Part shown: positions 54,301 through 60,300 of the stretch, one piece after another
Layout: each line of letters begins with the position of its first letter
Position numbering within the stretch: the first letter of the stretch is position 1
From: Phoronis australis
Taxonomy: Eukaryota; Animalia; Phoronida
NCBI GenBank assembly: GCA_002633005.1
Contig: NMRA01000676.1
Coordinates: 92,658 to 156,657 of the forward strand
Length of the DNA stretch: 64,000 nucleotides
Direction of reading: 5' to 3'
Made by a program: the position numbers and the translations under genes
Notes under the pieces: generated by a model
Told to the model about the DNA's origin: nothing
The model's input: only the letters and a program-made list of their open reading frames with translations
The model's database searches: none

Positions 54301-57300
54301 AGTGGGCTTCGTTGATTTTTGCTGTGTGTCGGGTCTGGCTGGGGGCGTCGCTCACCGAGCATTACACTGGCAACTCTCATTGGCTCGTACTTTTTTTGTA
54401 GTGGTCTGCTGCTGACCAATAGCTATCCATATCTGTGAATATCTATTGTTAAATCAACAGATGAACATGAGTTAGGTTCAAATAAAGCTTACAATTTTTC
54501 TTGAAAGTCTTCAAGCCGAGTGACTTAAAATTTTCCATGCCAGTTGATGTATAGTCTTTATAGCTCTCACTGGAAGCATTGTGGTAGATTCAGCTCCCGG
54601 AAATACGTTTCTGAGTTTGATAAACTTGAATGCAACTGTAACTTTTCTGGTCAGTGAAAGGCTGATATTGTGTTGGTGGTAAGTATTCTTGAGGATGAGA
54701 TCCCATCTTAAGCACTCAGTGGCTCGGTGAGTGTTTTTGGTGTGGCACTTTGCGACTTACTTTTGATGTAGTGCTTAGTGTTGGGACGAGGCTGAGAGCA
54801 ACTACGTTTTGGAAGGTTTGGTTTGCTTACCTGTTGCATCACCTTTGTTTTTAACGAAAGCACTGTTGACAAAAGTAGATGCTAGTGCCCATCCGGTAGC
54901 CCGACACGCCCACACACATGCTCGCCAGCATTCATTGCACCATCAGCCATTTGATTGATACCTGTCATGTTGGTCGTTTTCCATGTGACTAACACGATCA
55001 TGTCTTATAATGTCTTAGGTGCATCGCGGGGATTTGCATTTGTGGAGTTTCATAACGTGCAAGACGCCCAGCGCTGGATGGAACAGAACAAGGTTTTATC
55101 TTCAATTCAATCTGTCTGTCTCTCGGTATAGTAGAACGCCGCGGCCATCACGTGCCCGGCAGTGTGGTCGTAGCCTGTGCTCGAATGACGACTGGCTCCC
55201 AGCGGAGTCGGTCGTCCTGGCCAGAGAACTCAGACCTTCAGCCGAAGTGTGAGGTTAGGCTAACTTAACTGAGCGTAGGCAGAAAACCCAGTGAATAGTG
55301 ACTGCGAGTGTGTGGGGGAAACGTGTGAATTTTGAACAAAATGTTTTGAATCACTTGCCAAACGCTTTAGTTTGTAATCTGGACACCCAATTTCTTCATT
55401 CATTACAACATCAAAGACCATGAATTTAAATTAAAATTATGTTGTTTTGAATAAAAAGTAAGGAAAGGGATTCCAACTATTTTTGGATTCCAGATTTTGA
55501 AGTGTTCAGGCAAAGCTAAATTTGAGCATTCAGTTATGATGGCGTGCATGTTTCAACCTATCCTGGTGTATGAATGATCATTGAATGTCTGAAGTGAAGG
55601 TGAACACCTCTATTTAAAGACTCGGTTTAAAAATTTAAGTAGATCTCAGTTTGTATCTTGGCCATGCCACTACAAATATGTCATGTAAGAGCAGAGAATC
55701 CATGTCTGGAGTTTTTTTTCTTGTAATTAACTTGGCATGAAAACAGATGGTCTTTGAAATACAAATCTGATGCTGTTCCGTGGTGTGAATACCACCTCTG
55801 TGTTAATTGATATCGGGGACTGGATTTTTCTGTATTAGTACATCACCATCAATTAATATGTCTTTGACAATTTCGAAACAAATGACTAGGTTTTCTTTCA
55901 GGTAATGAGGTCCCCTTACTGGCTATGCAACTGACAATAGTATGTCCTATGACAGTCTTGCTCCGAGTTTGCAAGAGCTGAAGAAGAGATTTCAGCTTTT
56001 ACCGTCATCACTTTGTTTTGCTATGAGTTCAGAAGGCTCGGAAATCTGGAGTCACTTGTGACGAGTCTTAAGATAATTCGAGCTACTTTGAAAAAGACAA
56101 CGGCAATCGATTTGATAACGGTAAAAGTTGATCACTAGTTTCTGAGATAGCAATTAAGTACCCGATCTTGGGCTTTGTTCTTTGGTCACCTTGTGGAGAA
56201 TCCTAAATAAATGGACTATGCCCTGAATAGTGGGCGGTGCCCTGAATAGTGGGCGGTGCCCTGAATAGTGGGCGGTGCCCTGATTAGTGGGCGGTGCCCA
56301 GTCGAAGCTGTCCATCTCCTCCATCTTTCAAGTGTGTCTCTTGCAGCTTTACTACTCCCACTGGAGTCCTAAGGTTATTTTCTTTTGTTGATGCGCGGTA
56401 AGCAGAGTTGGATCTGGTATAGTTACTCGTGTACTTTACCCTTGTCTTGTTTATTCCAGGGCCAGCTGTTCATTGAAGGTCAGCGGGTTTTCATGCACTA
56501 TAGCCACTCGCGCGAGCGTAATATGGAGCAGGGTGGGCCCGGAGGCGGGGCTGACACAAGGCATGACCCAAACAAGGGTGACTGGATCTGCTCAAAGGTG
56601 AGGTGAAACAAATTCATGTTGTTACACAAATGGTCGCCTTTACTTTGTTATGGACACTGTCATTCCTATGGTGACGTTTTGACAACTCTGTCAAAATACA
56701 CCGTAGATTTCGTTGTCATGACAGCTGGTGTCCTTTGTTTAACACGATGCTGGTGCTACTAAGTGCAGTTAGTAAATCCATCTTTACTTCAGCAATGCTT
56801 AGGAAATCTGTATACCATATTGTTCATCTACAGTCTAGATGTTGCTCACTTTTTATGTGCCCACATATTTATATGTGGACGCATTATGCCGTCATCGTCC
56901 GGGCGGCGTCCGTCCAGCGTCCGCTGCTCTATCTCCGAAACCCTTTGACATACGTTCATGAAATTTGTCACATATGCTCCAATCATGAATGGGATGGCAT
57001 GAGCGAACTTTCGGACGGATCAGACTACCGGTGTGCCCCTTAGTGGCAATTTTTGTTTTTATGCGCCCACATATTTATATGTGGACGCATTATTTACGCT
57101 TACCTTTGTATCTTCAAAAGTCCTGAACGGATTTTCGTGAAATTTGGTATGTAGGCACCTATTAGTGAGATGATGCTATCCTCCCGTTTTCGGATGGACT
57201 CGACGTAGTTTGCGCCACCTAGTGGCCATTTTTACTGTTTTCAAGTCTGTTTTTTTGCAACCACCCCTCTATCAACCAAACCGCTCAAAGAATGATTGTG

Positions 57301-60300
57301 AAAATTGGTATGTATGTGCTTACTGTAAAGAGGATAGTTGACAATGATTTTCCAATGATTTTGACTACTGCGGCGCCTCCTAGTGGCAGTTTTGTTTTTG
57401 TTGCGCCTATGGCTGTTTCTCATAAACCGTTCGCAGGATCTGTACTTAATGTAATATGTGTATTTATATGATGTTGACTACGGATGACGACGACTTTTGG
57501 ACAGATCTGACTACTGCTGTGCCCACTAGTGGCAATTTTAGTGTTTTACGTTTAACTTGGTATCTTCAAAGGTTTTCAACAGATTTTCATAAAATTTTAA
57601 ATATAGGCATCTATTGGTGTGATGATGCTATCTTCCTGTTTTTGGATGGAATCCAGGTATTTTGCACCACCTAGTGGCCATTTTTGCTGTCCACCCCTGT
57701 ATCAACCTAATCATTTGAAAATTGGCATATATGTTGTCAGTGTGAAGAAGACCTTTGATGATGGTGACTGACTACTGTGGCGCCTCCTAGTGCGCACATA
57801 GCTATATCTCCTAAACTCAATGCAGAATCTTTACTAAATTTAGTAAGTGTATTTATATGAAGATAACAGACGACTACGACGACTTTCAGGCGGATCCAAC
57901 GGACACTGTGCCCACAAGTGGCAATTTCATTTTATTCTGTTTTCCTTTGTTTCTCTGAATCCTTGACAGATTTTTATGAAATATGGCATGTTCCTTTTTT
58001 TGGATGGGTTTTATGTTTTTGCGCCATCTAGTGGCCATTTTTATGATACAAATAAATAAACCTAAAAGTACACCATTTGCAATGCATTCATGGGCGCATT
58101 TCAACACTCCGCGTTGCCCTTGTTCACAAATTAGGTTCTTTTCTTTTTATCTGCTCTGTTAGAGACTCTGTAAGTAATTTGTTTTTAGCCGTGCTGTATA
58201 CTAAATGTTTCTTTATTAATATTATTGCTTTCTATTTGATCAGTGTGGAGCTCACAACTTCAAGAGGCGGGAGTTTTGCTTCAAGTGCAATATCTCAAGA
58301 GAAGGCAAGTTTGTTATGATAAAGGTCTCATTCATTACCATTTTGTATGTCAAATTCAAACTGCAGTGGTATGCATTTGCAGCATGGTGATCAGGATTCT
58401 ACTTCATTTTGTTGGCTTCATAGACAAGCACTGACTGCTGCCTACATATGCTAGCATTGACTGCTGCCTACACAGACCTGCACTGACTGCTGCCTACGTA
58501 GATCAGCACTGAGTGCTGCCTACGTAGACCAGCACTGACTGCTGCCTGCGTAGACCAGCACTGACTGCTGCCTACACAGACCAGCACTGACTGCTGCTTA
58601 CGTAGACTAGCACTGACTGCTGCCTGCGTAGACCAGCACTGACTGCTGCCTACGTAGACCAGCACTGACTGCTGCCTACACAGACCAGCACTGACTGCTG
58701 CCTCATTGACTGTTGCTGTTTTAGCAAGACGATTTGTGAAAATAAGTGTTAAATATGCCTCTGTTATATGATCAATGGAGTATGTTTGGTAACATTGGAT
58801 GTGCCATAGTGGGTTGGTCATGAGGCAGTTTAGTGGTGCTTCCTCATTTTTGTGTACAGCAAGCGACTTGTATATGTCGTTTAAATGAGCTTGGTACGTT
58901 TTGGAAAGTAAAGTATCAACAGTTGTTGGTAGTAGTGAGATTTGTAAATGGTTGTATTAGAGACGGACTGGTTATGCAGTTACAAATATATCTGTGTTTG
59001 TTATTCAGATTCTGAGAAGACAGATGTTGATGATGGTAGTGATCAGGTCGGCACCAATCCTTGTAATAGTGAGTATTCTCAGTTATGTTGGAGTTGTTTT
59101 ATGGGAGATTTAAAAGTCTTTGTGTGTGAGGATACAGCTGTTTTAATCTCTTTGTTGTTTTTATCTCCCTATGTTTTTATTTTTCGTTCCATTTATTTGA
59201 TATATTTATTTCATTCCCATGAGGACTCATTCAGTCAAGAGCTTGGATGCATAATTCATGTTTTTTGTCTTTTCAGACAGTAATGTTTAGGAAGCTTTTT
59301 TCTCTGTTAGTTCGTAATTGAGCTATATCTTAAGTATTTTCGAGTATTCTTTTTAGAACTCAGCAGAACGTGGTTATGGTGAGCACTGTGATACAGCTTG
59401 AACAAAATGAACATCACTTGTGTTTCATCAGCTTGTCCCATTTTTATCAATCATGTTTCTAATAGCCAACAGTTATATTAATAAATTAACTATACAGAAA
59501 AATTTTTTAAAAGATTTACGAATTCCGTCAAAACTTAATTGTCTTCGTCAAAGTTGTGGCGAAACCCAGAACCAAAATAGCCCTGAATCATTTAAAAATT
59601 ACCCAGAGTCCGTTTCAAAGTTTGGCTAATTTTCGACGAGAAGAAATTTGTCAATTTTTCTTAAAAAACAGCAGTACGATGATGGTCGCCTGATTAGTAA
59701 GCGATACCTTGACTTGTATTCATCTCAGTTTACTATCTATACCACCAGCGTTGCTGTTTAGAGGTCTGGATGCACTGTCCACAGAAGAAAGCCTCCAGTC
59801 ACGCTTAACTGCACTGTCGAGCACTACACCAAAGAATGTACTGGTCATACGAGATCCACTTACCAATGTGTCAAAGAGTTTCGCTTTTGTGGAGCTTCAC
59901 TCAGTGATGGTAAGTGGCTGTAAAGTTTATTTGTGTTATTCCCTTTATGTTATAATGTGCTTGGTAATGTAGTTATTGAATCTGTTGGGGAGTTGTATTC
60001 TCTCCCTATTATTGCTGAAGTATGATTGTTCGATAGAACTTAGGTTGATAACAGCAAGTACAGCTATGACTGTACTAGTACAGTTGAACTTCTGTGAACT
60101 TCAAAGTTTGTAAATGTCCATCCCTAACTTTAAAATTTCTGATACTTACACTTTCCTGTGGTGTAGGTATTCTCTTTTTTGTTGATCTGAGGAAACGTAG
60201 GACTCTTGTTGAGAAATGTCCAAAATGGGCGTATTTTGGAACGTCATATCTCGGAAGTGGCAGATGGGATTCATATGAAACTCACAGCTTTGAAAAGGAA

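What the first reader, a model, noticed from the sequence alone, without database searches (positions are those of the whole stretch)
57032..58037. Helentron-type element carrying eight co-oriented CTCF-like motifs in a three-monomer higher-order repeat
Seen: the best-preserved part of each diverged monomer is an 18-mer: TGTGCCCCTTAGTGGCAA (57032), TGCGCCACCTAGTGGCCA (57211), GGCGCCTCCTAGTGGCAG (57372), TGTGCCCACTAGTGGCAA (57518), TGCACCACCTAGTGGCCA (57663), GGCGCCTCCTAGTGCGCA (57779), TGTGCCCACAAGTGGCAA (57907), TGCGCCATCTAGTGGCCA (58020), cycling A-B-C-A-B-C-A-B. Established: the reverse complement TGGCCACTAGGTGGCGCA closely matches the CTCF core consensus, and CTCF is broadly present in bilaterians. 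Inference: a mobile element that spreads roughly nucleosome-spaced CTCF arrays, here in the intron splitting the RanBP2 zinc finger.
Basis: partly seen in the sequence, partly recalled or inferred. Interest (0 to 1): 0.72.

Follow-up and report, generated by a model that had tools for sequence, protein, structure and literature searches.

The report
Jumping gene spreading CTCF-site clusters
A very common 1.3-kb jumping DNA element in a marine invertebrate carries eight same-direction matches to the docking site of the genome-folding protein CTCF, and its transcribed copies almost all read in one direction, so it likely seeds many uniformly oriented CTCF clusters in genes, although CTCF binding itself is untested.

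Summary
All eight motifs lie at the stated places on one strand and score p≤1.1e-5 with a recalled CTCF matrix. They sit in a 1,275-nt element (56850-58124) with HINE (non-autonomous Helentron) anatomy. It is high-copy with many different flanks and fills 77% of an RBM5/10 intron that interrupts the RanBP2 zinc finger. The A/B/C motif classes differ only at low-information CTCF positions (P=0.003), suggesting selection during the element's own evolution. This copy is decaying: 5 of 8 sites carry a disfavoured core base. 'Nucleosome-spaced' is not supported: 6 of 7 gaps are under 147 nt. New here: 97-99.5% of family RNA reads share the element's + sense, with varied flanks, so CTCF motifs in transcribed copies would face the promoter. 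Transposon-borne CTCF sites are known in mammals, lamprey and zebrafish, and this scan noted such arrays in other elements of other genomes. My searches found no Helentron case. Binding, a host CTCF gene and an autonomous partner are untested.

The parts
56850..58124 (+). Whole non-autonomous Helentron-type element (HINE), 1,275 nt, T-run at the 5' end, ends CTTGTT
   Evidence: Depth rises from single-copy to 1e4-fold or more inside these limits; loose ends at 56849/56850 and 58124 have 0.36-0.39 agreement, meaning many flanks
56854..56884 (+). 5' subterminal inverted repeat with its partner IR (hairpin)
   Evidence: Fold -11.2 kcal/mol, z -2.4 for 56845-56915; 9-10 nt complement to 58090-58100
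56897..56924 (+). Eroded GTCC microsatellite
   Evidence: other copies carry a longer GTCC run (loose ends at 56896)
56915..58045 (+). Eight diverged monomers A1-B1-C1-A2-B2-C2-A3-B3 (113-161 nt apart, apart from the duplicated end)
57056..57093 (+). Duplicate of the 5' terminal hairpin in this copy; absent from many family copies
   Evidence: 97% identical to 56850-56887; joint 57058>57093 in 756 and 653 RNA reads
57031..57049 (-). CTCF-like core A1 (15.6 bits; 23.5 with the family-majority letter)
57210..57228 (-). CTCF-like core B1 (25.6 bits)
57371..57389 (-). CTCF-like core C1 (23.4 bits)
57517..57535 (-). CTCF-like core A2 (17.6 bits; 24.0 with the family-majority letter)
57662..57680 (-). 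CTCF-like core B2 (21.6 bits)
57778..57796 (-). CTCF-like core C2 (16.7 bits)
57906..57924 (-). CTCF-like core A3 (12.1 bits)
58019..58037 (-). CTCF-like core B3 (24.2 bits)
58090..58100 (+). 3' subterminal inverted repeat, about 35 nt from the end
58102..58116 (+). Weak 3' palindrome (5 of 6 pairs by eye), 8 nt from the end
   Evidence: Sequence; fold not better than shuffles, z +1.0
56460..56597 (+). RBM5/10-like exon ending in the first half of the RanBP2 zinc finger (DWICSK)
   Evidence: transcribed
58244..58306 (+). RBM5/10-like exon with the second half of the zinc finger

Best explanation
This is a high-copy HINE-type (non-autonomous Helentron) element whose eight internal monomers each end in a co-oriented CTCF core motif, likely kept by selection on the element so that host CTCF would bind it. 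Shown: the anatomy, the many insertion sites, the motif match, class differences confined to tolerant motif positions, and near-uniform + sense of transcribed copies. Inferred: an unseen autonomous Helentron moves it by rolling-circle transposition into T-runs. Inferred: CTCF binding would keep young copies open or unmethylated and so favour their spread. Inferred: because the gaps are too short for a nucleosome between bound sites, an occupied array would be nucleosome-poor, not nucleosome-phased. Inferred: insertion likely favours the T-rich non-template strand of transcribed genes, which would leave the motifs pointing back to the promoter. The copy in the RBM5/10 intron is likely a decaying passenger.
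For: Ends and copy number: 24,827 and 30,264 Logan contigs and about 0.2% of RNA reads laid, with mixed flanks at both ends. subTIR, IR hairpin, GTCC run, T-run ends and central repeats match the HINE features in PMC4067079 and PMC7492417. Motif scores. Family-majority letters raise A1 and A2 to 23.5 and 24.0 bits. A/B/C differ only at matrix positions 1, 2, 12, 16, 18 and 19; 81 of 27,132 position sets are as low in information. Among family RNA reads, 2 of 10 non-CpG G/C motif positions against 13 of 15 flank positions show a listed variant (Fisher p=0.002). Strand: 6396:170, 5394:158 and 6964:32 in three RNA runs of one study, the same sense as the host exons. CTCF-like hits are also enriched outside the element (10 against 1.6±1.2 at p≤1e-5; some are duplicates). 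Other AT-rich, animal-like contigs carry 155-171-nt-spaced pairs or arrays of the same motif (3 of 4 metagenome hits); there was 1 hit in 596 Gb of prokaryote genomes and 0 in viral contigs.
Against: No binding data, and no genome in which to look for a CTCF gene or an autonomous partner. The matrix is recalled. Over all positions the read-level contrast is not significant (5 of 19 against 27 of 53, p=0.11), and A/T positions do not differ. The motif CpG decays (12% and 18%), and position 9 varies in 7% of reads. Only 40 of 72 variant rows were shown, reads from B2/B3-type monomers are mixed in, and read seeding may favour the motif. Across the 8 raw sites, variability does not track information content (rho -0.30, p=0.21). 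A second, non-CTCF box is almost as conserved. No upstream (M2/U) motif is seen by eye. The 3' palindrome is weak. The T-run skew on the host gene's sense strand is only about 2:1, too small to explain the strand bias alone, and no other repeat family was laid as a control. Echinoderm CTCF motifs show no orientation pattern at boundaries (PMC13317027).
Confidence: 0.6

Rival explanations
1. The conserved 19-mer is bound by a different protein (a transposition factor or another zinc-finger protein) or serves the element's replication, and resembles CTCF by convergence.
For: HINE monomers keep other conserved boxes (PMC7492417). No M2 motif is seen. B motifs run into GCCATTTT, a YY1-like word (recalled).
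Against: Near-maximal CTCF scores (relative score up to 0.96). The class changes use the degenerate CTCF positions 12 (G/T/A) and 16 (G/A).
Confidence: 0.17
2. A host CTCF site was captured once by chance and amplified passively with the monomer; it gives the element no benefit.
For: Helitron-type elements capture DNA and form tandem arrays (PMC7492417). The sites decay in this copy and at the CpG in family reads.
Against: The three classes diverged to about 47% identity in spacers while the core stayed at 0.69-0.78, with changes only at tolerant positions. Unrelated repeats in other contigs hold the same motif at similar spacing.
Confidence: 0.15
3. This particular copy has been domesticated as an insulator or a polymerase-pausing/splicing control for the RBM5/10 zinc-finger exons.
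For: It fills 1,275 of the 1,646 nt of the intron, 119 nt from the acceptor, in an expressed gene. Three sites (B1, C1, B3) score above 23 bits.
Against: 5 of 8 sites carry a disfavoured core base, and at A1 and A2 the family majority has the favoured one. The copy shows deletions and a duplicated end.
Confidence: 0.08

Closest known systems
HINE / DINE-1 non-autonomous Helentrons (PMC4067079, passages read) and oyster Cg_HINE elements (PMC7492417, passages and first part of Results read)
   Same: 5' subTIR plus IR hairpin, GTCC-type microsatellite, short array of about 140-180-bp monomers, 3' subTIR, T-run ends, high copy number, no coding capacity
   Different: Monomers cycle as three diverged classes, each ending in a CTCF core; no CTCF motif or transcription-linked orientation appeared in the passages read; 3' palindrome is weak in this copy
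Transposon-spread CTCF sites: mammalian retroelements (PMC3368268, abstract and one Results section), lamprey hAT-Tip100 (PMC5504073, passages), zebrafish non-autonomous DNA transposons such as TDR13B (PMC7182764, passages and part of Table S3)
   Same: A mobile element distributes CTCF motifs genome-wide
   Different: Those are vertebrate, ChIP-proven and not described as Helitron/Helentron in what I read ('helitron' occurs 0 times in the lamprey main text and the zebrafish supplement); here an invertebrate rolling-circle element carries eight co-oriented sites; binding unproven
Helitron-borne heat-shock elements of Caenorhabditis (PMC6927752, abstract and outline read); ISX elements spreading MSL sites in Drosophila miranda (recalled, paper not held)
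   Same: A rolling-circle element carries and spreads host-factor binding sites
   Different: Different factor; those are shown functional
Helitron-derived PATC insulators of C. elegans (bioRxiv 10.64898/2026.08.08.743475, passages read; supplements closed)
   Same: Intronic Helitron repeats proposed as chromatin barriers
   Different: Those act by DNA mechanics in a CTCF-less animal; this one carries sequence-specific CTCF motifs

Membership tests
HINE (non-autonomous Helentron) | Subterminal inverted repeats near both ends (11-15 bp) | tested here: met
   9-10 nt complement between 56854-56864 (and its duplicate 57060-57070) and 58090-58100, with 0-2 mismatches in this copy; slightly shorter than the published range
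HINE (non-autonomous Helentron) | 5' IR forming a hairpin with the subTIR | tested here: met
   z -2.4 and -5.9 for the two copies
HINE (non-autonomous Helentron) | 3' palindrome / stem-loop 8-35 bp from the end | tested here: inconclusive
   5 of 6 pairs at 58102-58116 by eye; fold z +1.0
HINE (non-autonomous Helentron) | Microsatellite after the left end and central tandem repeats | tested here: met
   GTCC run and eight monomers
HINE (non-autonomous Helentron) | Interspersed, T-rich target, T's at both ends, no target-site duplication | tested here: inconclusive
   Many T-rich flanks and T-run ends; no duplication seen at this copy, but no empty site was available
HINE (non-autonomous Helentron) | Autonomous Rep/Helicase/endonuclease partner with shared ends | not testable with these tools
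   No genome held; no long transposase-sized ORF in the window
CTCF binding site | Core M1 motif match | tested here: met
   8 of 8 at p≤1.1e-5 with a recalled matrix
CTCF binding site | Optional upstream M2/U motif (in a quarter to a third of mammalian sites, PMC3368268) | tested here: not met
   By-eye check against the recalled M2 word; no matrix available
CTCF binding site | Constraint on informative positions | tested here: inconclusive
   Met between monomer classes (P=0.003) and at non-CpG G/C positions in reads (p=0.002); not met over all positions (p=0.11) or in this copy's raw sites (p=0.21)
CTCF binding site | Occupancy by CTCF; host encodes CTCF | not testable with these tools
   No ChIP/ATAC data and no genome; CTCF is of bilaterian origin (PMC10658181 passage) and the host looks bilaterian
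Higher-order repeat | Same-class monomers more alike than neighbours, in a fixed order | tested here: met
   Spacer-only tree groups B, C and A2/A3; A1 stands apart; only 2.7 cycles

The most novel reading that the evidence does not exclude
A rolling-circle element that inserts along the direction of transcription has planted thousands of CTCF-bound, promoter-facing site clusters in the gene bodies of an invertebrate: a selfish, polarised insulator cassette that would reshape 3D folding and give a natural test of whether CTCF orientation matters outside vertebrates.
Probability: 0.25. Interest if true: 0.82.

Novelty: new variant of a known kind. Interest (0 to 1): 0.57.

Why it matters
Whether CTCF acts directionally outside vertebrates is open: echinoderm boundaries show no orientation pattern (PMC13317027) and spiralian evidence is thin (PMC10658181). 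A high-copy element with eight same-direction sites, almost always in one orientation relative to transcription, would supply many natural insertions for testing binding, insulation and directionality. The 35-200-fold strand bias also bears on how Helentrons choose their target strand. If CTCF does not bind, this is an ordinary HINE with a striking but idle motif.

Tried and rejected
No whole genome is held, so copies could not be collected. No RNA holder was listed by index; raw 2026 RNA runs were laid instead. Gapped pairwise identity of spacers was inflated by gaps (shuffles gave 0.63) and was replaced by anchored and MSA-column measures. The first exon scans used frames one base off; corrected. 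The first ZnF exon alone matched nothing. Rfam found 0 matches at E≤0.1. A published CTCF matrix could not be retrieved, so the matrix is recalled. L004 (a Ser/Thr-rich coding repeat) and L005 (a bacterial genome, not examined further) are treated as chance hits. L001-L003 show no blastn similarity to the element outside the motif. Joints that go back about 450 or skip about 400 nt may mean trimer gain or loss, or cross-mapping between monomers; they are not used as proof. Summed contig depth is not taken as a copy number. An internal promoter was rejected as the main source of the strand bias because reads extend into varied upstream flanks. Element-borne polyadenylation (AATAAA at 58051/58055) was rejected as the main source because reads run past 58124 and no pile-up of ends was listed. 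Paper searches for a Helentron/Helitron-CTCF link or a Helitron orientation bias gave no such report in listings or passages read. Two recalled papers were not held. Supplements of the bioRxiv preprint and Data S1 of PMC7182764 were not seen.
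Full report
Context. The window comes from an AT-rich animal genome (GC 38%). A single-exon DRC12/CCDC153 gene has its best hits in molluscs, annelids, echinoderms and hemichordates at 55-62% identity, so the host is likely a marine invertebrate bilaterian. No assembly is held. The finding lies in an RBM5/10-like gene on the + strand. 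A GT..AG intron at 56598-58243 interrupts the RanBP2 zinc-finger pattern after DWICSK. The next exon matches the RBM10 finger 2mxv (E=4.9e-5), and an OCRE-like exon lies downstream (E=2e-4, below the curated cut-off).

Observation. The eight 18-mers are at the stated coordinates. Scored with a recalled JASPAR MA0139.1 matrix (its column sums are consistent, 908-913), all fall on the - strand at 12.1-25.6 bits. The five best hits of the window are among them. The element has 9 hits at p≤1e-4 against 0.38 in 200 shuffles. A spacer-only tree groups B1-B3, C1-C2 and A2-A3, with A1 apart, so the A-B-C cycle is real over about 2.7 turns. Spacing is 179, 161, 146, 145, 116, 128 and 113. The first figure includes a 34-nt duplicate of the left end that 756 (X5) and 653 (X6) reads skip. 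Only 1 of 7 motif-free gaps reaches 147 nt, so a nucleosome could not sit between most bound neighbours. Oyster HINE monomers are 140-180 bp anyway (PMC7492417).

What the element is. Laying two DNA contig sets and two RNA runs at 80% likeness placed 24,827 and 30,264 contigs and 26,945 of 12.75 million and 22,707 of 11.31 million reads. Depth jumps by four orders of magnitude or more between 56850 and 58124. Loose ends at both limits agree only 0.36-0.39 and are T-rich, which means many insertion sites. Summed depth is not a copy number; hundreds to many thousands of copies is my inference. The ends read TTTTT plus a subTIR/IR hairpin (z -2.4; the duplicate -5.9), an eroded GTCC run, the monomers, a 3' subTIR about 35 nt from the end, a weak palindrome, and CTTGTT. 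This is the HINE layout of PMC4067079 and PMC7492417. The autonomous partner and an empty site could not be sought. The splice sites lie in unique flanks, 252 and 119 nt away, so the element landed in an existing intron.

Are the motifs kept as CTCF sites? Evidence for: (i) At two sites where this copy is weak, the family majority has the favoured base, giving 23.5 and 24.0 bits. (ii) Between classes the motif is 0.69 identical (12-nt core 0.78) against 0.47 in aligned spacers. (iii) A1, B1 and C1, with family letters where known, differ only at matrix positions 1, 2, 12, 16, 18 and 19; 81 of 27,132 sets of six positions have as little information (one representative per class, post hoc). (iv) In family RNA reads over B1, 2 of 10 non-CpG G/C motif positions against 13 of 15 flank positions carry a listed variant (p=0.002). 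Evidence against: over all positions the contrast is 5 of 19 against 27 of 53 (p=0.11). The motif CpG decays. Only 40 of 72 rows were shown and seeding may favour the motif. In this copy 5 of 8 sites have a disfavoured core base, and variability does not follow information content (p=0.21). A second box is nearly as conserved (0.64). No M2 motif is seen by eye. Together this fits selection on the active lineage followed by decay after insertion. Outside the element the window also has more CTCF-like hits than local shuffles (44 against 14.5±4.0; 10 against 1.6±1.2, some duplicated), weak support for CTCF in this host. A two-motif pattern found 4 metagenome loci. Three are AT-rich, animal-like and carry sites 155-171 nt apart, two of them as clear tandem repeats, and one lies beside a HINE-like end. 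None resembles this element beyond the motif. The pattern gave 1 hit in prokaryote genomes and 0 in viral contigs.

An unexpected result. The RNA libraries are stranded: host exon reads are all first-mate-minus. Family reads are first-mate-minus at 6396:170, 5394:158 and 6964:32 (97.4, 97.2 and 99.5%; three samples of one study), and they run into varied flanks at both ends. So the transcribed copies are read through from many loci almost only in the element's + sense, and their CTCF motifs would point back to the promoter. T-runs are only about twice as common as A-runs on this gene's sense strand, so T-targeting alone is not enough. I infer insertion into the non-template strand, or removal of antisense copies or their RNA. 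No control repeat family was laid, and orientation was not counted in a genome.

Mechanism. Shown: anatomy, dispersal, motif match, partial constraint and strand bias. Inferred: mobilisation by a Helentron, CTCF binding, a benefit to the element (protection from silencing), and transcription-linked targeting. Rivals are another binding factor, passive capture, and local domestication.

Comparison and novelty. Transposon-spread CTCF sites are established in mammals (PMC3368268), lamprey (PMC5504073) and zebrafish (PMC7182764), and Helitrons spread HSF-1 sites in Caenorhabditis (PMC6927752). Searches gave no report of CTCF arrays in Helentron monomers or of such an orientation bias; subscription papers were not covered. 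Earlier notes of this scan describe CTCF arrays in a foldback element, a P element and an annelid minisatellite (unchecked), so the theme recurs; no look-alike of this sequence was indexed. Verdict: a real feature, a HINE by most tested criteria, a new variant of transposon-borne CTCF sites, with function untested.

Noticed in passing
window 56850-58124 family, runs X5-X7: 97-99.5% of family RNA reads share one sense despite varied flanks; the family makes up about 0.2% of RNA reads. Cause unexplained.
   Followed up: partly
window 13368-18112, 24823-27650, 32218-34634, 49809-53972: Adjacent near-identical duplications (94-98%), including RBM5/10 5' exons; may be haplotype or assembly duplicates.
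   Followed up: no
window 44532-45314 and 46297-47065: Two copies (88%) of another repeat, each with one CTCF-like hit on the - strand (44755, 46518).
   Followed up: partly
window 57222-57233 (also B2, B3): B-class motifs run into GCCATTTT, which resembles a YY1 site (recalled).
   Followed up: no
window 58421-58703, 56219-56299, 62600-62808, 62831-62984: 26-, 19-, 52- and 73-nt minisatellites within the RBM5/10 gene region.
   Followed up: no
window 11164-11802 (-): Single-exon DRC12/CCDC153 gene.
   Followed up: partly
L002 191-209 and 815-1148: CTCF-motif monomers (158 nt) on opposite strands at the two ends of a 1.3-kb contig, a foldback-like layout.
   Followed up: partly
L003 1268-1360 (-) and 1499-2018: HINE-like left end with GTCC run next to three strong CTCF-like sites.
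   Followed up: partly
L001 1443-1965: 171-nt tandem repeat, 3.1 copies, one CTCF-like site per unit.
   Followed up: partly
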